Below, in pieces: positions 1,877 to 49,175 of a stretch of DNA of 64,000 nt (position 1 is the stretch's first letter; every line of letters starts with the position of its first letter). This DNA is from Oligoflexales bacterium. GTDB taxonomy: Bacteria > Bdellovibrionota_B > Oligoflexia > Oligoflexales > Bog-1112. The stretch spans positions 2,320 to 66,319 of the forward strand of contig JAGNWK010000004.1 in NCBI GenBank assembly GCA_017985985.1. The letters are read 5' to 3'. Position numbers and translations under genes: made by a program. A model generated the notes under the pieces. It made no database searches, was not told where the DNA came from, and saw nothing but the letters and a program-made list of their open reading frames with translations.

Positions 1877-1999
1877 TAGGAACCCTCCCACAAGTCGTCT
1901 AGCCAAGTTCTTTTCGTAGCTGCGGTGCTCATTTGCCAGCAAGTAGACAGCTGCTCACATCTCAATGTCTTGCTATACGACTTGTGGGAGGGCTTCTAG
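1877..1999. mobile_element. Family A MITE-like palindromic element, copy A1 (about 123 bp)
   Basis: The terminal inverted repeats are TAGGAACCCTCCCACAAGTCGT ... ACGACTTGTGGGAGGGCTTCTAG. The element aligns over its whole length with the reverse complement of 6602..6726. Confidence 0.8.
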
Positions 2000-2048
2000 T
2001 CGATAAGGCGCATCTTAGCAGTGCTCTATTCTCCTGTCTAGGTTTGGA

Positions 2049-4749: not shown

Positions 4750-5014
4750 GCAGCAGGAGGGAATAGGGAAAGATTTTAACGAAAGACCTAAGGAGGGGCT
4801 AGGGGAAAACTTGAATTGAGCTCGTTTGACCCCACTCCAACCTGTCTAAGTATTATGATTTCGTCATTGCGAGGAGCCGGAGGCGACGAAGCAATCTTGC
4901 CTTTATATATACGGAGATTGCTTCGCTTCGCTCGCTATGACGAGGTCTGCCATGAATACTTAGACAGGTTGGCTCAGGGCAAGCTCTGTCGAAGGGGTGC
5001 GTAGCTGGTTCCCC
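4750..5014. repeat. Family B REP-like element, copy B1 (reverse orientation), split by an inserted family C element
   Basis: The left part is GCAGCAGGAGGGAATAGGGAAAG ... AAGGAGGGGCTAGGGGAAAAC (4750..4810). The right part is GGGGTGCGTAGCTGGTTCCCC (4994..5014). Together they equal the reverse complement of the B4 architecture at 40316..40380. Confidence 0.7.
4811..4993. mobile_element. Family C palindromic element, copy C1 (core 4837..4972), inserted inside B1
   Basis: The terminal inverted repeats are CCAACCTGTCTAAGTAT ... ATACTTAGACAGGTTGG. The inner palindrome is GTCATTGCGAGGAGCCGGAGGCGACGAAGCAATCT ... GGAGATTGCTTCGCTTCGCTCGCTATGAC. A second copy lies inside tsaB. Confidence 0.75.
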
Positions 5015-5022
5015 TAGAGATC

Positions 5023-5388
5023 CTAGAGAAGTTCCATATCGGTGACAGAAACACCAGTAAAGTTCTCTGAAAACTCAAAGTCTTTGGTTGGAACTACATC
5101 GTTTTTGAGCCCTTTGGAAGCAAAAGTCTCTTGATAAACATTGCAGAAGAAGTAGTCAAACTCTGAGGAGAATGGATAATTGGTGCAGTCGATGCTTTTG
5201 TCTGCGCTCGGCGGCTTTCGTCGTACCGGCTCAGCTGCGGGTCTTCCTCTTCCGCGGGTTTTTTTGATAAGCTCCGGGTCCTGATTCTGTTTCAATTTAA
5301 GTCCGCAAAGGTTTTTGAATTGGAAATCCTGTCCGTCCTTTGCGACTTGGCCGTGACGCACGTGATGGGGGCAGCGTTTACAACTCAT
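5023..5388 (-). CDS. Hypothetical protein (N-terminal CxxC..HH, central basic RGRGRP stretch)
   Basis: 121-aa ORF with an ATG start and no overlapping competitor. I recognise no family. Confidence 0.45.
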   Translation of the reverse strand: MSCKRCPHHVRHGQVAKDGQDFQFKNLCGLKLKQNQDPELIKKTRGRGRPAAEPVRRKPPSADKSIDCTNYPFSSEFDYFFCNVYQETFASKGLKNDVVPTKDFEFSENFTGVSVTDMELL

Positions 5389-6584: not shown

Positions 6585-6601
6585 ACTCTTTTGTAGGAAG
6601 A

Positions 6602-6726
6602 CTAGGAACCATCCCATAAGTCGTATAGCAAGGCATTGAGGAGCGAGCAGCGCAGTTTACTTGCTGGTAAATGAGCAGCACAGCGACAAAAATAACGCAG
6701 CTAGATGACTTGTGGGAGGTTCCTAG
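6602..6726. mobile_element. Family A MITE-like element, copy A2 (125 bp, opposite orientation to A1)
   Basis: Ends are CTAGGAACCATCCCATAAGTCGT ... ATGACTTGTGGGAGGTTCCTAG. It fills the gap between convergent accD and meaB. Confidence 0.8.
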
Positions 6727-6730
6727 CTGC

Positions 6731-7786
6731 TTAATTCTTTTTAGGGGAACCGGCTGCGCAGTTTTCCCTAGCCCCTCCTTGCAGCCAGGTTTTGGCTATA
6801 GTCCTTGCTACAGTTGAGGGGACTTCTGTCCAGGTTGGGCTTATAGACCTGGGCTTGTCGAGGCAGAGGTTCTTCATCTTTTCAAGTTCATCTTGAAATC
6901 TTTGGGAATGTTTCAGTTCGAATTGCAAAGCTTCCTCTAATTCGGTGCAAAACCATTCTGTATTCTGCTCTTTTCTTCGAGCAGCAGTTCTTTGTGTCCG
7001 TTCTTCACACTCAAAAAATGTGTGCAACTCAGACCACAGCTCTTTGATACCTTCCCCAAAAAGAGCACTGCCAAGTAGGACTCCCTGCGGACTCTTGCGC
7101 ATGGAACCTTGTAGACGGAGACTGACAGCTGTTTCGAAGATTTGCTTTGCTTTTAGGGCTTCAATTTTTAATTCACCATCGGCCTTGTTGATAAAAATAA
7201 AATCACTGAGCTCAAGAGCGCCACGTTTAAGACTCTGCCACTCATCCCCTGTGGCAGGCATCATGAGCAGAAGAAAACAGTCGACCATACTTGCAACAGT
7301 ATACTCACTCTGTCCTGTTCCGACTGTTTCAACGAGGATTCGATTAAAGCCTGCAGCTTCCATAAGCAGGAGAGTCTCTCTGCTTTTTTTTGCCAAACCG
7401 CCATGGCTGACTCGTTGGGGACTGGGGCGGATAAAAGCTCTTGGGTGCAGAGCAAGGGACTGCATTCTGAGTTTGTCGCCGAGTAGGCTTCCACCTGTTA
7501 AAGGGGAAGAGGGGTCCACACTCAGAACAGCGAGTTTGGCTAGAGGATCTGCTAAGACTTCAGCTCCCAACTTTTCGATCAGGGTGCTTTTCCCAACACC
7601 AGGGATGCCGCTGATCCCCAGACGTAAGGCTTTTCCTGAGTGGGGTAGAACTTGCTTTAGGAGTTTTTCTTTAGCTTCCTGGTGGGCAGCTTGCTCACTT
7701 TCGACCAGCGTAATGGAACGAGCAAGAGCTCTTCGATCTCCTTTCAGGATACCTTCCATAAGAACGGGAACATCATAATCCTGCAT
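6731..7786 (-). CDS. meaB: Methylmalonyl-CoA mutase-associated GTPase (MeaB/ArgK)
   Basis: Has the P-loop [12 protein letters not shown] and [19 protein letters not shown] prefer the ATG at 7786 ([12 protein letters not shown]...), which overlaps the mutase stop by 14 nt; the ORF itself is open up to 7924. The last roughly 17 codons are encoded by repeat B2. Confidence 0.85.
6744..6782. repeat. Family B REP-like element, copy B2
   Basis: GGGGAACCGGCTGCGCAGTTTTCCCTAGCCCCTCCTTGC. It lies inside the 3' end of the meaB ORF. Confidence 0.75.
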
Positions 7787-21324: not shown

Positions 21325-21470
21325 TAGAACACGGGCAGATCGATACCTCTCGACTCGCTACACTCGCTCGAGGTGACGGGTTCGTTTCCGTTCGATATAG
21401 AACACGGGTAGATCGATACCTCTCGACTCGCTACACTCGCTCGAGGTGACGGGTTCGTTTCCGTTCGATA
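21325..21470. repeat. Family D repeat D1: two tandem 73-bp units
   Basis: The unit is TAGAACACGGG(C/T)AGATCGATACCTCTCGACTCGCTACACTCGCTCGAGGTGACGGGTTCGTTTCCGTTCGATA, at 21325..21397 and 21398..21470. They differ at one visible position. Confidence 0.85.
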
Positions 21471-21625
21471 TAATTTTCTTAAGAAGGGCAGAGTAGTTAA
21501 TGCACAATATATCGGGAAGTGAATTCTCAAATTTTTCCATCGCGATAGGCTGGTGATGAAACAAAAAGTCGAGCCCCAAAGGGGCGAGATCATTGTTAGA
21601 GAGAAGAGTACTTATACAGGTTGGC

Positions 21626-21661
21626 TCGGGTGACTTCATGTCGGTCGGGTGACTTCATGTC
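21626..21661. repeat. Direct repeat, 2 x TCGGGTGACTTCATGTC (19-bp period)
   Basis: Copies lie at 21626..21642 and 21645..21661. The reverse complement (GAAGTCACCCGA) resembles the core of the 26-bp array at 37611..37737. The second copy overlaps the stop codon of the MBL hydrolase gene. Confidence 0.7.
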
Positions 21662-22697: not shown

Positions 22698-22724
22698 TCC
22701 AAGCTCCTTTACAAGCTTTTTCGT

Positions 22725-22765
22725 GGAGGAACCAGCTGTGTAGTTTTCCCTAAGCTACTCCCTCC
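22725..22765. repeat. Family B REP-like element, copy B3
   Basis: GGAGGAACCAGCTGTGTAGTTTTCCCTAAGCTACTCCCTCC. Confidence 0.65.
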
Positions 22766-25565: not shown

Positions 25566-26430
25566 AGTTCTGACAGCTGTCGTTGGCCTTCCCCTCGTTC
25601 TTGCCCTGCTCACTCAAGCCCCTATGGATTGGATCCAATGCTTCTTCCTTCTTCTCTCCATGCTCTGTGTTTGGGAAATAAGTCGATTTTTTATGCCAGC
25701 TCTCGTGCGGCGTCTAGCCTCTAAGAAAGGCCCTTCGAGCCCATTTTATCAGGGGCAAGAGAGTCTTTCTGTTCTCTGGACTTTGGGTCTGTGTCTGCTC
25801 AATGCGTTGCTTCTGGGTACCTTTATGTTGGCTAGAGCAGATTTGGGGGCGGCACTTTCTTTCTGCTTTGCTCTTATCTTCATCGCTGGTGTCTTTGTGG
25901 CCAGGAATAACATCGAGAGGGGCATTGCCATAAGCTCTGGACTCCTTATGAGCCTTTGCTATAGCAGTATTCCGTGGCTAGCTCTTATCGAAATTCAAGA
26001 GCAGAAGACGGATATTCATTCAGGTTATATTCTCGTTCTTCTCGCCATCGTCATGGGGAACGACACCGGGGCCTATTTTGCTGGAACCCTCTTCGGGCGC
26101 AGAAAACTTGCGCCTGAACTTTCCCCAAAGAAGAGCTGGGAAGGTTTTTTTGGGGGGCTCGTTTTTGGTATTCTTCTAGCTCTCCTTGTGGCTCGGGTAA
26201 TCAACCTTCCTGACACCTGGCTTATGATTCTGGCGCTTTCCCTCATAGGAACTCTGGCAGGAACCCTAGGAGATCTGATAGAATCGGCCCTCAAACGTTT
26301 TGCTGAGATCAAAGACTCGGGGGCCTTGTTCCCTGGGCATGGTGGCATGCTAGATCGAGCGGATTCTATTCTCATTGCAGCCCCTTTATTTTTGGTCGTT
26401 CTCAAATTAGGGAGGACCTTATACCCTTGA
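25552..26430 (+). CDS. cdsA: Phosphatidate cytidylyltransferase
   Basis: Polytopic membrane protein with SPKKSWEG...GDL.ES..KR and PGHGG.LDR at the C-terminus. The ATG at 25552 overlaps the uppS end by 14 nt. Confidence 0.88.
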   Translation: MLKHRVLTAVVGLPLVLALLTQAPMDWIQCFFLLLSMLCVWEISRFFMPALVRRLASKKGPSSPFYQGQESLSVLWTLGLCLLNALLLGTFMLARADLGAALSFCFALIFIAGVFVARNNIERGIAISSGLLMSLCYSSIPWLALIEIQEQKTDIHSGYILVLLAIVMGNDTGAYFAGTLFGRRKLAPELSPKKSWEGFFGGLVFGILLALLVARVINLPDTWLMILALSLIGTLAGTLGDLIESALKRFAEIKDSGALFPGHGGMLDRADSILIAAPLFLVVLKLGRTLYP

Positions 26431-28322
26431 CGAATCTTTTATCACACCCGCTGATGGCCATGGCACTCCTGCTTGGTATCCTTATCTTCGTGCATGAACT
26501 CGGTCATTTTCTGGTCGGCCGTTTTTTTGGCATAGGTGTCGAAATTTTTTCGCTGGGCTTTGGCCCAAGTTTGTTTAGTTTTAGATACAAAAATACCGAG
26601 TATCGACTTTCTGCCTTGCCTCTCGGTGGTTTTGTCAAGTTTGCAGGGAGCCTACCTTCTGAGCCGGTTGATCCCATCTATACCGGTCAGGAATTTCACC
26701 TGGCTCCGTGGTATGCAAAAATAGCAACCATAGCAGCGGGACCTCTTGCTAACTTTTTACTTACCATTTCGATCTATGCCTGCCTCGGGATGCAGGGGAT
26801 CGAACACCCTGCTCCCATTATTGGGGAGATACGTTCTCACAGCCCTGCTGAGCGGGCTGGTCTAGAGCCCGGTGATAGGGTTCTTAGCATCGATCAGCAT
26901 GTGGTTAAAAACTGGACGGATCTTCAAAAATTCATTCAGGAAGCGACTTCTCCTCGTATTCATCTCGTGGTTTCTCGAAGTGCTGGGATCCCTATCCCGC
27001 AGGAAAGTTCGAGAGAAAAATCAGCAGATGAGAAGATTATCGAGATTGATCTCAACCTTGATCTTGTCGATCTTGAAGATTTCGCAGGTCGATCTGTGAA
27101 ACGTGGACGAGCAGGGGTTGCGTTCGGTTTTCTTCCTCCAGTCCTGACGGTTTTAGCTGGCTCCAACCCAGCCTCTCTTGCGGGACTCAGGACAGGGGAG
27201 GAGATCGTCTCGATAAGAGTTCTCGACCCAGATCAAAGACAAGAGGCTGTTAGCCCCAAGACTTTCGATATCAAGACTTTCGATATCAAGACATGGGCAG
27301 ATGCTCTCCGTGCGTTTGATTTTGCCTTCCATAATAACGCAGATCAAGTGGAGTTGCGCGTCTCTGAGGCCGCTGTTCCTGCTGATAAAGTTGCTCTTTC
27401 TGAGAAGAACCTCTCCCCCAAGGAGACTCAGGTTCGTGTTCTGAAGCAGCTAAGGGCTGTATGGAGTCCACTTAGACAGGACTTTGATGTACATAAAAAG
27501 CCTGCTCCCCATTCTTTGCGTCGCCAACTCGCAGCAAGTCTCGGTCTGACAAGTAGTGAACTTACGGTTGCGGAAACACCCAAAGGAAAGTTAGATACGT
27601 CCACTTCTAATCAATCTTCCCCAGATAAGCCGGGTGTACAAAAAAGAGATCAACTGCTGCAGATGGATGGCAAAGACCTGGTGGATGTCTACGATCTGAT
27701 GGAGAGACTCAGTACAAATCAAAAACCCGTCCTTGCTTTCACTGTACAGCGAGAAGGTCTTACCCAAAATTTAGACCTAGCTCTTGTTCCTGTGGATCTC
27801 CAAAAACCTTCGGGGAAGCAAACAGTGTACACGCTTGACGCTAAGCTTTGGGGGCCAGCGATTTTTCCAAGTCCTATTTTGGAAATCTATGAAAGCCCAG
27901 TGGCAGCCCTCTCGTTTGCCACTCGAACGACAGGTGAACAGACTTTTGCCCTGCTTGATGTGCTCAGAGGGCTCTTTACGGGTCAGGTTCCACTCCAGTC
28001 TTTGGGTGGTCCGATGTTGATTGCCAAAGTCGCTGGGGATTCTGCCAAACTTGGCGGCAAGGCCTTCCTCATGGCGATGGCCCTAATCAGTCTTAACCTA
28101 GGGGTCATGAACCTGTTTCCGATCCCTGCTCTCGACGGAGGTCAACTGCTTATTCAGCTTTTCCAAGCAGTAAGAAGACGGGCTTTGAGTGAAGCAGCTC
28201 TGGAAAACTTTCAACGTCTTGGCTTTGCTCTACTCCTTGCGCTCGTTGTTCTTGCAACATACAACGATCTCAGTCGCTTTTGGTCCTCTATGCTGGGTGA
28301 ATTAAAAGGTGTTTTCGGATGA
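26427..28322 (+). CDS. rseP: RIP metalloprotease RseP (M50 site-2 protease), enlarged periplasmic region
   Basis: Has HELGHFLVGR (HExxH) in the first TM helix, PDZ-like GLEPGDRVLSID, and C-terminal NLFPIPALDGG. 631 aa. Start is TTG at 26427 (overlapping the cdsA stop) or ATG at 26454. Confidence 0.88.
   Translation: MTNLLSHPLMAMALLLGILIFVHELGHFLVGRFFGIGVEIFSLGFGPSLFSFRYKNTEYRLSALPLGGFVKFAGSLPSEPVDPIYTGQEFHLAPWYAKIATIAAGPLANFLLTISIYACLGMQGIEHPAPIIGEIRSHSPAERAGLEPGDRVLSIDQHVVKNWTDLQKFIQEATSPRIHLVVSRSAGIPIPQESSREKSADEKIIEIDLNLDLVDLEDFAGRSVKRGRAGVAFGFLPPVLTVLAGSNPASLAGLRTGEEIVSIRVLDPDQRQEAVSPKTFDIKTFDIKTWADALRAFDFAFHNNADQVELRVSEAAVPADKVALSEKNLSPKETQVRVLKQLRAVWSPLRQDFDVHKKPAPHSLRRQLAASLGLTSSELTVAETPKGKLDTSTSNQSSPDKPGVQKRDQLLQMDGKDLVDVYDLMERLSTNQKPVLAFTVQREGLTQNLDLALVPVDLQKPSGKQTVYTLDAKLWGPAIFPSPILEIYESPVAALSFATRTTGEQTFALLDVLRGLFTGQVPLQSLGGPMLIAKVAGDSAKLGGKAFLMAMALISLNLGVMNLFPIPALDGGQLLIQLFQAVRRRALSEAALENFQRLGFALLLALVVLATYNDLSRFWSSMLGELKGVFG
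27258..27287 (+). repeat. Perfect 15-bp tandem duplication inside rseP
   Basis: AAGACTTTCGATATC occurs twice, giving KTFDIKTFDI in the protein. Confidence 0.9.
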
Positions 28323-29269
28323 GTCCATCACTCTGCTTGATCATCGATGGAAGCGTATCTGGGATCAGCCTTGCGCTTATTTTAAGTGACGAGATCTGGG
28401 CTCCATCTATGCGTTCGTTAGGTCGAGGAGCCGTAGGCGACGAAGCTGCTTCCACAGAGAACCTGCTTCGTTCTGCTCCAACCGGGTCATTGCGAGGAGC
28501 CGTAGGCGACGAAGCAATCTCGCCTTTAAATGGAGATTGCTTCGCTGTGCTCGCAATGACGGCGTTCTGTCATGAAGACTTGGATGGGTTGGTTTGCAAT
28601 GACGGAAACTTGGTTCACTCTAAAAACTTAGCTCATCCTAAAAGCAAGGCTTGGCAGGCTGTCGGCCGTGCCTATGAGGGCTCCAAGGATTTGTCTTCAC
28701 TGGTTGCGGAGGGGCTTGCTAGCTTTGGAGCCCAGATGCAAGATATCCGTTATATGCTTATTTCCTGTGGGCCAGGTTCGTTCACGGGGATTAAAATAGC
28801 GCTGTCTTGGGCTCAAGGGGTTTATCTTGCGAATAAGCACAAGATAGCTGTTTTTTCCTATTCCGCCCTTGCTGAAACTTTGGCTGAAATCCGGCGACGG
28901 GGTCTTGTCGAGGAGGACGCTCTTTTGATGTTCCCTTCTACAAGAAAGTCTGGCTTTCTTGCGTTTTTTAAGGCCAGTGCTTATGAGCTTGATACCATCG
29001 AACTGTCAGATGCCGAGGAAGTCCACAAAAAGCTGGCTCCCTTCAGTTCTTTTGTAATCGTTGGCCCTTGGATGGAGGCATCTGCGCTTCTCAGTCAGCT
29101 TGCTCCAAAGCCGATCCAACAGCTAGAAATTCCGTTAACCGAATTTAGTCGAATGGCACTAGAAGGAGCTTTTTCCTTGCTCAGAAATTTGGGTCCAGGA
29201 GTTTTTGATTCTACTTTCCCAAGCCCTCTCTATTTGAAAAAATCAGCCGCCGAAATGAGGATAAAATGA
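28319..29269 (+). CDS. tsaB: tRNA t6A37 biosynthesis protein TsaB (YeaZ), carrying an in-frame repeat-element insertion
   Basis: Has the N-terminal LCLIIDGSVSGISLAL strand, then GPGSFTGIKIALSWAQG. At 316 aa it is about 85 aa longer than E. coli TsaB as I recall it. The ATG overlaps the rseP stop. Confidence 0.8.
   Translation: MSPSLCLIIDGSVSGISLALILSDEIWAPSMRSLGRGAVGDEAASTENLLRSAPTGSLRGAVGDEAISPLNGDCFAVLAMTAFCHEDLDGLVCNDGNLVHSKNLAHPKSKAWQAVGRAYEGSKDLSSLVAEGLASFGAQMQDIRYMLISCGPGSFTGIKIALSWAQGVYLANKHKIAVFSYSALAETLAEIRRRGLVEEDALLMFPSTRKSGFLAFFKASAYELDTIELSDAEEVHKKLAPFSSFVIVGPWMEASALLSQLAPKPIQQLEIPLTEFSRMALEGAFSLLRNLGPGVFDSTFPSPLYLKKSAAEMRIK
28415..28592. mobile_element. Family C palindromic element, copy C2, inserted in frame within tsaB
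   Basis: Shares GTCATTGCGAGGAGCCGTAGGCGACGAAGCAATCT, GGAGATTGCTTCGCT and CATGAAGACTTGGATGGGTTGG with C1 (4837..4972). A partial duplicate of the first arm lies at 28421..28446. Confidence 0.75.
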
Positions 29270-35187: not shown

Positions 35188-35263
35188 GCGAAGCACTTAG
35201 CTTACTTGCTGATATAAATGCTAGTGCAGGGACCAGTTAGATGGCTTGTGGGAGGGGTCCTAG
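35186..35263. mobile_element. Family A element, truncated half-copy A3
   Basis: GAGCGAAGCACTTAGCTTACTTGCTG...AGATGGCTTGTGGGAGGGGTCCTAG aligns with the right half of A2. It fills the gap between convergent speD and the hydrolase gene. Confidence 0.65.
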
Positions 35264-35268
35264 TGAAA

Positions 35269-37505: not shown

Positions 37506-37790
37506 GAGATCACCTAACCGCCAATGTCATTCGGTTAGGCAGAATTCTTTAATCGTCTGCTTTGTTTTAACTCGATACCTCTCGACTTCGCTCGAGGTGA
37601 CGAGGCTTTAATTGATAGGGAGAAAGTCACCCAGAAATTGATAGAGAGAAAGTCAACCAGAAATTGATAGGGAGAAAGTCACCCAGAAATTGATAGGGAG
37701 AAAGTCACCCAGAAATTGATAGGGAGAAAGTCACCCCGAGCGAAGTCGAGGGGTATCTTGCCTTAACCGAATGACATTGACCTAACCGCC
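37506..37790. repeat. Family D composite element D2: nested inverted repeats enclosing a tandem array
   Basis: Outer arms are CCTAACCGCCAATGTCATTCGGTTAGGC (about 37513..37540) and GCCTTAACCGAATGACATTGACCTAACCGCC (37760..37790). Inner arms are GATACCTCTCGACTTCGCTCGAGGTGAC (37574..37601) and GTCACCCCGAGCGAAGTCGAGGGGTATC (about 37729..37756). Confidence 0.8.
37611..37737. repeat. Tandem array, about 5 x 26 bp (ATTGATAGGGAGAAAGTCACCCAGAA)
   Basis: Copies start at 37611, 37637, 37663, 37689 and 37715. Copy 2 has two substitutions and the last copy merges into the inner inverted-repeat arm. Confidence 0.9.
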
Positions 37791-40306: not shown

Positions 40307-40315
40307 CTTCTTCTT

Positions 40316-40380
40316 GGGGAACCAGCTGCGCAGTTTCCCCAAACCCCTCCTTGCCAGAGTTTTCCCTAGCCTCTCCTTGC
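40316..40380. repeat. Family B REP-like element, copy B4 (with duplicated tail)
   Basis: GGGGAACCAGCTGCGCAGTTTCCCCAAACCCCTCCTTGCCAGAGTTTTCCCTAGCCTCTCCTTGC, just after the rlmN stop. Confidence 0.8.
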
Positions 40381-44068: not shown

Positions 44069-44101
44069 GGTTTCTTAGGAGAGCCAGCTGTTCTTTCATT
44101 A

Positions 44102-44139
44102 GGGGGAACCAGCTGCGTAGTTTCCCTAACCCTCCTTGC
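44102..44139. repeat. Family B REP-like element, copy B5 (between exbB and exbD)
   Basis: GGGGGAACCAGCTGCGTAGTTTCCCTAACCCTCCTTGC. Confidence 0.8.
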
Positions 44140-44166
44140 TAATTGAATGAACCAAACGGAGGACTT

Positions 44167-49122: not shown

Positions 49123-49130
49123 GTTTTTTT

Positions 49131-49175
49131 GGGAGAAACCAGCTGCGCAGTTTTCTCCCAAACCCTCTTCCTTGC
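49131..49175. repeat. Family B REP-like element, copy B6
   Basis: GGGAGAAACCAGCTGCGCAGTTTTCTCCCAAACCCTCTTCCTTGC, just after the gdh stop. Confidence 0.75.

What the first reader, a model, noticed from the sequence alone, without database searches (positions are those of the whole stretch)
28415..28592. A palindromic repeat element is inserted in frame inside tsaB
The tsaB ORF (28319..29269) keeps its conserved N-terminal strand (LCLIIDGSVSGISLAL) and the GPGSFTGIKIA motif. The two are about 85 residues further apart than in E. coli TsaB (231 aa, from memory).

The DNA encoding the extra stretch is a copy of the intergenic family C element at 4837..4972. Shared strings are GTCATTGCGAGGAGCCGnAGGCGACGAAGCAATCT, GGAGATTGCTTCGCT and CATGAAnACTTnGAnnGGTTGG. 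A partial duplicate of the first arm precedes it at 28421..28446.

The insertion has no stop and keeps the frame. The peptide reads ...SLGRGAVGDEAASTENLLRSAPTGSLRGAVGDEAISPLNGDCFAVLAMTAFCHEDLDGL... . This mirrors what Rickettsia palindromic elements do in ORFs, here in a gene of the universal t6A pathway.
Basis: partly seen in the sequence, partly recalled or inferred. Interest (0 to 1): 0.7.

Follow-up and report, generated by a model that had tools for sequence, protein, structure and literature searches.

The report
Palindromic repeat inserted in-frame in tsaB
A selfish palindromic DNA repeat, present in hundreds of copies in this uncultured (probably Bdellovibrionota) bacterium, sits inside the essential tRNA-modification gene tsaB without breaking its reading frame, adding a roughly 77-residue floppy loop; this is a new example of a phenomenon already known from Rickettsia and other bacteria.

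Summary
tsaB (28319..29269, 316 aa) carries about 77-84 extra residues between strands beta2 and beta3. None of 84 homologues has residues there, including two orthologues in the same uppS-cdsA-rseP-tsaB-pssA gene order.

At least 28408..28605 of the extra DNA is repeat-derived:
- a near-consensus element copy at 28478..28592;
- a degraded copy upstream, with an exact 23-nt repeat;
- a short arm fragment downstream.

The insert has no stop codon. It lies in the only stop-free frame of the six in the intergenic reference copy (4837..4972). AlphaFold models a confident TsaB/YeaZ fold with residues 31-110 as a low-confidence loop.

Six metagenomes from three studies hold the locus. The element core reaches about 600-700 times the depth of its flanks, so the genome probably holds hundreds of copies.

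The core arm is not lineage-specific. The exact 34-mer occurs in at least 116 genome stretches from more than a dozen phyla. It looks like an unlisted type of CGTC-tagged REP dimer. It also lies in frame inside alaS, lnt and an oxoprolinase gene elsewhere.

Verdict: a new member of a known kind (RPE-like or REP-in-ORF insertion). Translation and function were not tested.

The parts
28319..29269 (+). tsaB ORF, 316 aa. Its ATG overlaps the rseP stop (ATGA).
   Evidence: The AF2 core has pLDDT above 90, and the best Foldseek matches are YeaZ/TsaB chains such as 4wq4_C, E = 6e-12. The gene order uppS-cdsA-rseP-tsaB-pssA matches L117 and L120.
28397..28648 (+). Extra coding stretch relative to all homologues, about residues 27-110. 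The boundaries are uncertain by roughly 15 codons. The net excess is 77 aa against the syntenic orthologues.
   Evidence: The D10-to-GPG spacing is 141, against 64 in P0002 and P0004 and a median of 58. AF2 gives pLDDT below 50 for residues 31-110, with beta2 at 16-22 and beta3 at 112-117. An HMM built from the 84 homologues scores best when 83-84 aa are deleted, rising from 118.7 to 130-135 bits. The variant lacking residues 28-110 aligns collinearly with TIGR03725 from profile position 2.
28408..28477 (+). Copy A, an older and degraded element copy. It keeps the left arm, including the exact 23-mer at 28424..28446, followed by a diverged hairpin remnant (TGCTTCGTTCTGCTC resembles TGCTTCGCTGTGCTC).
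   Evidence: family D3. Metagenome depth is single-copy over 28403..28469, so this copy no longer resembles other copies at 85-90% identity or more.
28478..28592 (+). Copy B, a near-consensus element of 115 nt. It consists of a CCAACC remnant of the left outer arm, the core dimer and the right outer arm. Relative to the intergenic copy it has changes of -18, -4 and +1 nt, a net -21 that keeps the frame.
   Evidence: As single-stranded DNA it folds at -30.2 kcal/mol, z = -6.0. Its letters match the majority letters of the family in the metagenomes: T at the N position, A in CGCAATGAC, and the loop shorter by 4 nt.
28486..28519 (+). Long core arm of 34 nt, GTCATTGCGAGGAGCCGTAGGCGACGAAGCAATC.
   Evidence: The exact 34-mer, with N at position 18, occurs in at least 116 genome stretches from many phyla and in 7 IMG/VR contigs.
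28535..28561 (+). Short core arm, GATTGCTTCGCTGTGCTCGCAATGAC plus G. It is inverted relative to the long arm and follows a 15-nt spacer at 28520..28534.
   Evidence: Inverted repeats I1 and I5. The 26-nt short arm is the commonest partner in other genomes, in 40 of 81 dimers.
28562..28592 (+). Right outer arm, ...CATGAAGACTTGGATGGGTTGG. It is specific to this lineage.
   Evidence: It aligns to 4943..4972. No outer arm was found in any of the 116 loci from other genomes. The pattern joining the outer and inner arms gave no hit in the JGI metagenome contigs.
28594..28605 (+). TTGCAATGACGG, a third fragment of an arm end. It may be the displaced right end of copy A, if copy B is nested inside copy A.
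   Evidence: A 10-nt exact repeat of 28553..28562 (family D4). The nesting is an inference. The rest of the putative right half is not significantly similar to the reference copy (score 14, shuffle mean 13.9).
4837..4972 (+). Intergenic reference copy of 136 nt. It has 18-bp outer inverted repeats (CCAACCTGTCTAAGTATT) around the core dimer.
   Evidence: DNA fold of -40.5 kcal/mol, z = -9.7. Only one of its six reading frames is stop-free, and that is the orientation and frame used in tsaB.
21606..21651 (+). A solitary copy of the right outer arm and its flank, without a core.
   Evidence: (family D6, 72% to 4954..4999).

Best explanation
A non-autonomous palindromic repeat has inserted, probably twice, into the part of tsaB that encodes the turn between strands beta2 and beta3. 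The repeat is a dimer of REP-like arms carrying CGTC tags on the outside, wrapped in an outer inverted repeat specific to this lineage.

Steps shown:
- The extra DNA is repeat-derived.
- It coincides with a gap in all homologues.
- It is stop-free and keeps the frame.
- The element is highly repeated.

Steps inferred:
- Only insertions in the element's open orientation and frame, with a total length divisible by three and at a structurally permissive site, survive in a needed gene. That is why this one is seen.
- The gene is read through from the ATG at 28319 and gives a TsaB with a normal fold plus a disordered surface loop of about 77 residues.
- Copy A is older, because it has diverged. Copy B is recent, because it is close to the family consensus. 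Copy B lies beside or inside copy A.
- Mobilisation uses an enzyme encoded elsewhere. CGTC-type REPs have no known transposase. At the one site where a filled and an intact target can be compared, I saw no clear target-site duplication, which fits REP or IS200-like mobility on single-stranded DNA better than a classical DDE-type MITE.
For: - Repeat identity.
- Gap coincidence: no homologue among 84 occupies residues 34-92, and the spacing is 141 against a median of 58.
- Positional orthologues of 257 and 260 aa lack the segment, in an identical gene order.
- Virtual excision raises the homologue-HMM score from 118.7 to 130-135 bits. It also raises the TIGR03725 score from 54.6 to 63.6 bits and makes the match collinear from profile position 2.
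- AF2 gives a confident core, residues 31-110 below pLDDT 50, and beta3 at 112-117. The best Foldseek matches are YeaZ/TsaB chains.
- Frame filter: one of six frames is open in the reference copy and two of six in copy B. The frame used is the open one, and the indels of copy B sum to -21 nt.
- Copy number: depth over the core is about 610-720 times the flank depth in three samples from different studies whose genome depth differs five-fold. Many of the matching contigs have the genome's own depth.
- Fixation: six metagenomes hold the locus, and no contig skips the insert.
- Precedent within the same repeat family: the arm lies inside the Pfam-matched regions of alaS, lnt and an oxoprolinase gene in other phyla.
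- Precedent in the literature: PMC3733652 and PMC10969869.
Against: - There is no direct evidence of a full-length protein or of t6A activity.
- Transcript evidence is one 190-nt metatranscriptome contig, 28297..28486. It stops at the repeat and could be carried-over DNA. No RNA run holds the body of the gene.
- No close relative exists (best identity 40% or less). The empty site, the exact boundaries and any target duplication therefore cannot be read.
- The Logan contigs (k = 31) break inside the left arm. The join across copy B rests on the window's own assembly plus gene logic.
- TsaB scores below the NCBIfam equivalog cut-off (54.6 against 69.3), though one syntenic orthologue scores lower still (42.8).
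Confidence: 0.78

Rival explanations
1. The insertion has inactivated tsaB. The open frame is luck or very recent, and the gene is a pseudogene on its way out. Its function would be dispensable here or supplied by another copy.
For: No expression or protein data exist. TsaB is below the NCBIfam cut-off. From general knowledge, t6A is dispensable in a few bacteria. The rest of the genome was not available to look for a second tsaB.
Against: - The insert uses the single open frame of six, and its total length keeps the frame.
- Copy A has diverged, so the gene has stayed open for a long time after the first insertion.
- The core fold is modelled at pLDDT above 90, and the invariant GPGSFTG motif is intact.
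- The N-terminal strand upstream of the insert still aligns with 81-84 of 84 homologues.
- The insert is fixed in six metagenomes.
Confidence: 0.12
2. It is an assembly artefact. A high-copy repeat has been collapsed or mis-joined, so the true tsaB has no insert, a different insert, or a much larger element between the arms.
For: The element is present hundreds of times. Logan contigs in every run break at 28493..28515, inside the left arm. No raw reads were available.
Against: - Both flanking contigs carry halves of tsaB in the expected gene order.
- The upstream contig already contains copy A and the start of copy B next to unique sequence.
- The downstream contig contains the unique spacer and the SNPs of copy B joined to the rest of tsaB.
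- The same two pieces recur with no mismatches in five independent runs.
- No contig joins the flanks without the insert.
Confidence: 0.04
3. The segment is not translated as part of TsaB. Either translation starts downstream of the element, or the palindromic RNA is removed or bypassed.
For: The mRNA would contain a very stable hairpin about 160-275 nt into the ORF. An in-frame ATG exists inside the element, at M80 in GCAATGACG.
Against: - The conserved beta1-beta2 strands (LCLIIDGSVSGISLAL) lie upstream of the insert and belong to the fold's core sheet.
- The start at 28319 overlaps the rseP stop, and the orthologues also start directly after rseP.
- I saw no ribosome-binding site upstream of M80 in the sequence.
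- Rfam finds no intron or ribozyme.
Confidence: 0.04
4. The stretch is a native loop of this lineage's TsaB that only resembles the repeat, or it was itself the source of the repeat.
For: About 15-25 of the extra residues, roughly 28606..28650 and 28397..28407, are not recognisably repeat-derived.
Against: Copy B is 84% identical to the intergenic copy over 111 columns and matches the majority letters of hundreds of other copies. The core arm is shared letter for letter with bacteria of many phyla. None of the 84 homologues has the loop.
Confidence: 0.02

Closest known systems
Rickettsia palindromic elements (RPE; Ogata et al. 2000, as summarised in PMC10969869 and PMC3733652)
   Same: Both are palindromic repeats of about 100-150 nt, present in many copies and inserted in frame, without stops, in unrelated housekeeping genes. 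Each carries an open reading frame of its own, and the inserts are thought to sit at permissive surface sites. PMC3733652 assigns RPE-4 and RPE-6 to the CGTC-tagged REP superfamily, whose end tag this core also carries.
   Different: The host is different: a free-living bacterium from wastewater and freshwater, probably Bdellovibrionota, not an obligate intracellular alphaproteobacterium. The sequence and the encoded peptide are different, and no Pfam or NCBIfam model matches the insert. The core arm is shared across many phyla, whereas RPEs are confined to one genus. Here the insert is a cluster of two or three copies.
CGTC-tagged REPs (Di Nocera, De Gregorio & Rocco 2013, PMC3733652)
   Same: - A CGTC or TGTC tag sits at the outer ends: 51 C and 27 T among 81 dimers.
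- The body begins with AT.
- A short tail follows (AATCC or AATCT).
- The predominant form is a dimer with the tags outside, often made of unlike partners.
- Dimers are sometimes embedded in a longer host-specific palindrome.
- No transposase is linked.
- Intragenic in-frame copies are known, including clusters that encode 43-82 aa.
- The core co-occurs with typical CGTC-1 units in L008, L015 and L025.
   Different: A single arm is not a clean hairpin with an 8-9 bp stem and a 4-5 nt loop. It forms 5 bp, a purine-rich internal loop and a GCC-GNA-GGC mini-hairpin, at -3.4 kcal/mol and z = 0.3. A CGTC-1 unit folds at -9 kcal/mol, z = -4.7. The peptides it encodes (SLRGA.., VIARS.., HCEE..) are absent from the paper's list of intragenic REPs. 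The paper reports CGTC repeats in 5 phyla, whereas this arm occurs in more than a dozen. I could not see the paper's Figure 2, so I cannot exclude that the arm falls under one of its four consensus families.
Bacterial MITEs with intragenic in-frame copies (ERIC, BOX, Correia/NEMIS, Anabaena MITEs; review PMC10969869)
   Same: It is small, non-coding for a transposase, has terminal inverted repeats, is present in many copies and occasionally forms in-frame fusions with host ORFs.
   Different: No target-site duplication is evident where a filled and an intact target can be compared. No parent IS was found. The inner part is REP-like rather than a shortened IS.

Membership tests
TsaB / YeaZ (t6A complex dimerisation subunit) | Match to Pfam PF00814 above the gathering score | tested here: met
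   29.2 bits against a cut-off of 24.8, residues 122-187.
TsaB / YeaZ (t6A complex dimerisation subunit) | NCBIfam equivalog TIGR03725 above its curated cut-off | tested here: not met
   54.6 bits against a cut-off of 69.3, rising to 63.6 after virtual excision of residues 28-110. The syntenic orthologues score 73.9 and 42.8, so this lineage sits around the cut-off.
TsaB / YeaZ (t6A complex dimerisation subunit) | YeaZ two-domain (ASKHA-like) fold with the GPGSFTG motif | tested here: met
   AF2 core pLDDT above 90. The top 29 Foldseek matches are YeaZ/TsaB chains. G151, P152, G153, F155 and G157 are invariant in 85 sequences.
TsaB / YeaZ (t6A complex dimerisation subunit) | Conserved genomic position with orthologues | tested here: met
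   The order AI-2E transporter, methylase, uppS, cdsA, rseP, tsaB, pssA is found in the window and in L117 and L120.
TsaB / YeaZ (t6A complex dimerisation subunit) | Binds TsaD and supports t6A37 synthesis | not testable with these tools
   This needs biochemistry or genetics.
Rickettsia palindromic elements (RPE) | Palindromic repeat inserted in frame, without stops, in a functional ORF | tested here: met
Rickettsia palindromic elements (RPE) | Sequence or peptide similarity to an RPE family | tested here: not met
   No NCBIfam or Pfam model matches the insert or the translated element at E up to 10. I did not confirm which RPE models those libraries hold. RPE-4/6-type peptides such as VIPVLDTGI and VIPAKAGI differ from those encoded here.
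CGTC-tagged REP superfamily | Unpaired CGTC (or TGTC/CCTC) tetranucleotide at one end | tested here: met
   The intergenic copy has C-GTCATTG and CAATGAC-G. In 81 dimers the preceding base is C in 51 and T in 27, and the following base is G in 51 and A in 29. The left end of the tsaB copy reads GGTC and its right end reads GACG.
CGTC-tagged REP superfamily | Monomer hairpin with an 8-9 bp stem starting with AT, and a 4-5 nt loop | tested here: not met
   The body starts with AT, but the arm alone forms only 5 bp plus an internal loop and a 3-bp mini-hairpin (-3.4 kcal/mol, z = 0.3). The stable hairpin is formed by the two arms together.
CGTC-tagged REP superfamily | Mostly dimers with the tags outside; short tail next to the spacer | tested here: met
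   81 of 118 arm matches have an inverted partner within 140 nt. The tail after GCAAT is CC(A) or CT(C).
CGTC-tagged REP superfamily | No dedicated transposase next to the repeats | tested here: inconclusive
   None of the 10 window ORFs scanned, which include those flanking the intergenic copy, matched a transposase family. The rest of the genome was not available.
MITE | Terminal inverted repeats, size of 70-300 bp, no coding capacity for a transposase | tested here: met
   18-bp outer inverted repeats and 136 nt in the intergenic copy.
MITE | Target-site duplication and a related parent IS | tested here: inconclusive
   Comparing the filled site (4812..4997) with intact palindromes of the same kind shows at most a 1-nt duplication. 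No parent IS was seen. The tsaB target cannot be reconstructed.

The most novel reading that the evidence does not exclude
The core of this element may be an undescribed type of CGTC-tagged REP dimer found across bacteria. Its 34-nt arm is conserved letter for letter in more than a dozen phyla, from CPR bacteria and Omnitrophota to Bradyrhizobium and Dehalococcoidia. It is repeatedly tolerated in frame inside essential genes: tsaB here, and alaS, lnt and an oxoprolinase gene elsewhere.

Such conservation with no linked transposase would point to one of two things. Either a universal host function or a still-unknown mobilising enzyme recognises this exact hairpin, or the element moves frequently between phyla. 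The family would then be a natural, repeated experiment in inserting peptides into proteins.
Probability: 0.3. Interest if true: 0.65.

Novelty: new member of a known kind. Interest (0 to 1): 0.42.

Why it matters
It adds a free-living, non-rickettsial case of a selfish palindrome living inside a gene of the universal t6A pathway. It marks the beta2-beta3 hairpin of TsaB as a site that may tolerate an insertion of about 77 residues.

The by-product may be more useful. The same core arm occurs in very distant phyla and inside other essential genes. This family could therefore be used to ask how REP-like repeats without a known transposase spread, and how often they remodel proteins.

For annotation, the case warns that such inserts lower family-model scores. 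Here the TsaB score falls below the NCBIfam cut-off, and the HMM match is split.

Tried and rejected
- **Rfam:** nothing in the window at gathering thresholds. Only chance-level matches over the insert at E up to 10.
- **Literature search by sequence strings:** only unrelated primer hits, or nothing.
- **Exact look-up of the window's TsaB on public contigs:** not on record.
- **Search of 5.8 billion proteins with the 65-aa insert peptide:** one weak hit. The search did not return the window's own TsaB, which contains the query verbatim. I therefore treat it as uninformative, not as evidence that the peptide is rare.
- **Scan of JGI metagenome contigs with the outer-arm-plus-core pattern:** no hits, so no further copies of the full element could be collected.
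- **The source genome:** A genome-wide census of coding against intergenic copies was therefore not possible.
- **RNA runs:** none holds the tsaB body.
- **Nesting of copy B inside copy A:** the proposed right half (28593..28670) is not significantly similar to the reference copy (score 14, shuffle mean 13.9). The nesting rests only on the 12-nt TTGCAATGACGG fragment and stays a hypothesis.
- **RseP:** it is 631 aa against 553-560 aa in the orthologues, so I checked for a similar repeat insertion. Its extra segments are not repeat-derived.
- **Pairing in the spacer next to the arms:** it exceeds shuffles. An inverted duplication gives the same pattern, so I do not count it as evidence for a selected RNA structure.
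Full report
**1. What is in the sequence**

The ORF 28319..29269 (+) is open and encodes 316 aa. Its ATG overlaps the stop of the upstream rseP gene. It matches Pfam TsaD/PF00814 above threshold. It also matches the TsaB equivalog TIGR03725, at 54.6 bits and below the curated cut-off of 69.3.

The string GTCATTGCGAGGAGCCGNAGGCGACGAAGCAATCT occurs exactly twice in the 64-kb window, at 4863 and 28486. None is expected by chance. The tsaB segment 28486..28592 aligns to the intergenic element at 84% identity over 111 columns. Its alignment score of 131 compares with a shuffle mean of 15 and a maximum of 25.

Upstream, 28424..28446 repeats 28493..28515 exactly over 23 nt. Weaker similarity, 82% over 39 nt, reaches back to 28408. 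Downstream, TTGCAATGACGG at 28594..28605 repeats the end of the right arm. Recognisable repeat DNA spans about 28408..28605.

**2. Does the gap coincide with the element?**

The public protein collection holds no close relative; the best identity is 40% or less. I aligned the window protein with 84 homologues of 206-271 aa.
- None has a residue opposite window residues 34-92, which is nt 28418..28594.
- The distance from the N-terminal aspartate (D10) to the invariant GPGSFTG motif is 141 residues, against a median of 58 and a range of 50-70.

Two of these homologues are positional orthologues. P0004 (257 aa, an NCBI MAG) and P0002 (260 aa) lie in the same order, uppS-cdsA-rseP-tsaB-pssA, as in the window. 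Both have a spacing of 64. The net excess is therefore 77 aa.

Two virtual-excision tests agree.
- An HMM built from the 84 homologues scores the window protein best when 83-84 residues are removed, rising from 118.7 to 130-135 bits. The register is unresolved between residues 27-110 and 42-124.
- Removing residues 28-110 turns the TIGR03725 match into a single collinear alignment from profile position 2 and raises it to 63.6 bits. The orthologues score 73.9 and 42.8, so scores near the cut-off are normal for this lineage.

After that deletion the hairpin is six residues shorter than in the orthologues, which again points to about 77 inserted residues.

**3. Structure**

AlphaFold2 with the 85-sequence alignment gives a mean pLDDT of 74 and pTM of 0.74.
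- 155 residues have pLDDT of 90 or more.
- A single low-confidence segment covers residues 31-110.
- Beta1 is at 5-10, beta2 at 16-22 and beta3 at 112-117.

The best Foldseek matches in the PDB are YeaZ/TsaB chains, for example 4wq4_C at E = 6e-12. The insert therefore sits in the turn of the beta2-beta3 hairpin and is modelled as disordered.

In the solved TsaB-TsaD complexes the interface is formed by the two N-domain helices, not by this hairpin. That comes from my knowledge of those structures and was not tested here.

**4. Anatomy of the element**

The intergenic copy at 4837..4972 is an almost perfect 136-nt hairpin (-40.5 kcal/mol as DNA, z = -9.7). It has three layers:
- 18-bp outer inverted repeats, CCAACCTGTCTAAGTATT;
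- short linkers;
- a core made of a long arm (34 nt) and a short arm (26 nt) in inverted orientation around a spacer.

tsaB copy B (28478..28592, 115 nt) has the same layout, with three length differences from the intergenic copy:
- it lacks 18 nt of the left outer arm;
- its spacer is 4 nt shorter;
- it has one extra base in the right linker.

The net change is -21 nt, which keeps the frame. Copy B folds at -30.2 kcal/mol, z = -6.0.

Copy A (28408..28477) keeps the long arm but has a diverged loop and right arm. Copy B may be nested in the right arm of copy A. That would explain the stray TTGCAATGACGG after copy B, but the rest of the supposed right half is not significantly similar to the reference, so this remains a hypothesis.

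**5. Frame filter**

The intergenic copy has exactly one stop-free frame out of six. Copy B has two. tsaB uses the orientation and frame that is open in both. The majority form of the element has the 4-nt-shorter spacer. Read in frame, that form would run into the TAG of the right outer arm. Copy B avoids this through its extra base. This is what selection against broken alleles of a needed gene would leave behind. Whether the adjustments came before or after insertion cannot be told.

**6. Copy number and population data**

Six metagenome runs from three studies (wastewater, freshwater and one unspecified) hold the locus at 58-99% of sampled words. Their contigs match the window with no mismatches across the insert, and none skips it.

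Summed depth over the core arms is about 650, 610 and 720 times the flank depth in runs X1, X4 and X2. The genome's own depth in those runs differs five-fold (about 10, 50 and 16). Many of the matching contigs have exactly the genome's depth. The simplest reading is several hundred arm copies in this one genome. The outer arms reach 30-150 times the flank depth.

The majority letters of the family are those of copy B, so copy B is young. Copy A is single-copy at 85-90% identity or more, so it is old.

There is a limit to this evidence. Logan contigs (k = 31) break inside the left arm, so contiguity across copy B rests on the window's own assembly and on the fact that both flanks are halves of one gene.

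A metatranscriptome run holds a 190-nt contig at 28297..28486. No RNA run holds the gene body. Evidence for transcription is therefore weak.

**7. The core is shared across many phyla**

It was also found in 7 IMG/VR contigs.

| Source type | Groups named in the record titles |
|---|---|
| Isolates | Bradyrhizobium, Rhodopseudomonas, Sphingomonas, Sphingopyxis, Erythrobacter, Thioalkalivibrio, Astrobacterium |
| MAGs | Omnitrophota, Dehalococcoidia and other Chloroflexi, Binatia, Desulfobacteraceae, Planctomycetales, Opitutus, Acidobacteriota, Bacillota, Cellulomonadaceae, Coxiellaceae, Pseudobdellovibrionaceae, Auribacterota, a CPR Daviesbacteria chromosome |

Single hits in MAGs could be binning errors, but the spread does not depend on them.

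Of 118 arm matches, 81 have an inverted partner within 140 nt, and 40 of those partners are the 26-nt short arm. The base before GTC is C in 51 and T in 27. The outer arms occur in none of these loci. They are also absent from the JGI metagenome contigs when searched as a pattern joined to the core. They are therefore specific to this lineage. In other genomes the variable base N is rarely T (5 of 81), but T is the majority in this genome. That points to amplification of one sub-lineage within the genome.

**8. The same arm in other genes**

In genomes of low GC content, where long open frames are meaningful, the arm lies inside the region matched by a Pfam domain in three genes:

| Locus | Host | Gene and position |
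|---|---|---|
| L019 | Omnitrophota | alaS, about aa 270-297 inside the PF01411 match at 8-585; the matched stretch is 28 residues longer than the profile span |
| L056 | Omnitrophota | lnt, about aa 402-414 inside the CN_hydrolase match |
| L102 | A gammaproteobacterium, 35% GC | An oxoprolinase gene, about aa 30-42 inside the Hydant_A_N match |

Different frames and strands are used in these cases. Residence in coding sequence is therefore a property of the family, not a peculiarity of this tsaB.

**9. Comparison with what is known**

The phenomenon is known. RPEs insert in frame into many Rickettsia genes (summarised in PMC10969869). Di Nocera et al. 2013 (PMC3733652) described two REP superfamilies. 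For their CGTC-tagged superfamily they report:
- a CGTC or TGTC tag;
- stems that begin with AT;
- 3-nt tails;
- mostly dimers with the tags outside;
- occasional embedding in host-specific palindromes;
- no linked transposase;
- intragenic copies, including clusters that encode 43-82 aa.

They assign RPE-4 and RPE-6 to CGTC families. The core found here shares the tag, the AT start, the tail and the dimer form. It also sits next to classical CGTC-1 units in some loci.

It differs in two ways.
- One arm alone is not a clean hairpin with an 8-9 bp stem.
- Its encoded peptides are absent from their list of intragenic REPs.

I could not see their consensus figure. I therefore call it CGTC-like and possibly an unlisted family. 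No Pfam, NCBIfam or Rfam model covers the insert.

**10. Mechanism and confidence**

- **Shown:** the DNA is repeat-derived. It coincides with a gap in all homologues. The frame is preserved. The site is a loop in the model. The element is present in many copies and the insert is fixed in the sampled populations.
- **Inferred:** the gene is read through to a functional TsaB carrying a disordered loop. There were two successive insertions. Mobilisation acts in trans through an unknown enzyme.

At the one place where a filled and an intact target can be compared, I saw no clear target duplication. There the intergenic copy sits in the centre of another palindromic repeat, GGGGAAAACT^GCGCAGCTGGTTCCCC. 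This fits REP or IS200-like mobility better than a DDE-type MITE, but it is a single site.

I put 0.78 on the main explanation, 0.12 on a pseudogene and a few percent on each remaining rival.

**11. Verdict**

This is a new member of a known kind. It is of moderate interest in itself. The distribution of the core arm across phyla is the more intriguing lead.

Noticed in passing
L001-L116 (genome loci), L121-L127 (IMG/VR): The exact 34-nt arm GTCATTGCGAGGAGCCGNAGGCGACGAAGCAATC occurs in at least 116 genome stretches from more than a dozen phyla, isolates included, and in 7 viral contigs. Most copies are inverted dimers with a 26-nt short arm and CGTC/TGTC tags on the outside. It is absent from Rfam, and its peptides are absent from the list of intragenic REPs in PMC3733652.
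   Followed up: partly
L019:299-2992 (+), L056:6371-7999 (+), L102:3696-7490 (-): The same arm lies in frame inside alaS and lnt of Omnitrophota MAGs and inside an oxoprolinase gene of a low-GC gammaproteobacterial MAG. In each case it falls within the region matched by the Pfam domain.
   Followed up: partly
window 4768..5030: The intergenic element copy, with extra flanks (4812..4997, 186 nt), sits exactly in the centre of another palindromic repeat, AAGGAGGGGCTAGGGGAAAACT^GCGTAGCTGGTTCCCC. Intact copies of that repeat give the empty-site sequence, and no clear target duplication is visible.
   Followed up: partly
window 6739..6782, 22721..22764, 40311..40354, 44098..44141, 49128..49171: A second palindromic repeat family, GGGGAACCAGCTGCGCAGTTTTCCCC followed by CCCCTCCTTGC, has five copies in the window. 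All five lie between the long ORFs, close to their ends.
   Followed up: no
window 37610..37765 and 21325..21470: There are two tandem arrays: five copies of a 26-nt unit (AATTGATAGGGAGAAAGTCACCCAGA) flanked by a 28-nt inverted repeat at 37574/37730, and two copies of a 73-nt unit at 99% identity. The motif CCTCTCGACT..CTCGAGGTGAC is shared between the two loci and also appears upstream of other element copies in the metagenomes.
   Followed up: no
window 1877..2001 and 6600..6719: Long inverted repeats of 52-68 nt at 82-85% identity lie 4.6-4.7 kb apart and bracket the region that holds the intergenic element. A related piece lies at 35236..35264.
   Followed up: no
window 26427..28322 (rseP): RseP is 631 aa against 553-560 aa in the syntenic orthologues. 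The extra segments lie in the region after the first PDZ domain and include a short tandem KTFDIKTFDIKTW. They are not made of the repeat families seen elsewhere in the window.
   Followed up: partly
window 21606..21651: A solitary right outer arm with its flank (72% to 4954..4999) stands without any core dimer. The outer palindrome and the core may therefore be separable modules.
   Followed up: no
L073 (MGRR01000099.1), about 100 nt downstream of the arm match: A tandem run of GTCATTGCGAGCGAACCACCC units follows the arm in a MAG named Deltaproteobacteria RIFCSPHIGHO2_12_FULL_43_9. The arm head can therefore form head-to-tail arrays.
   Followed up: no
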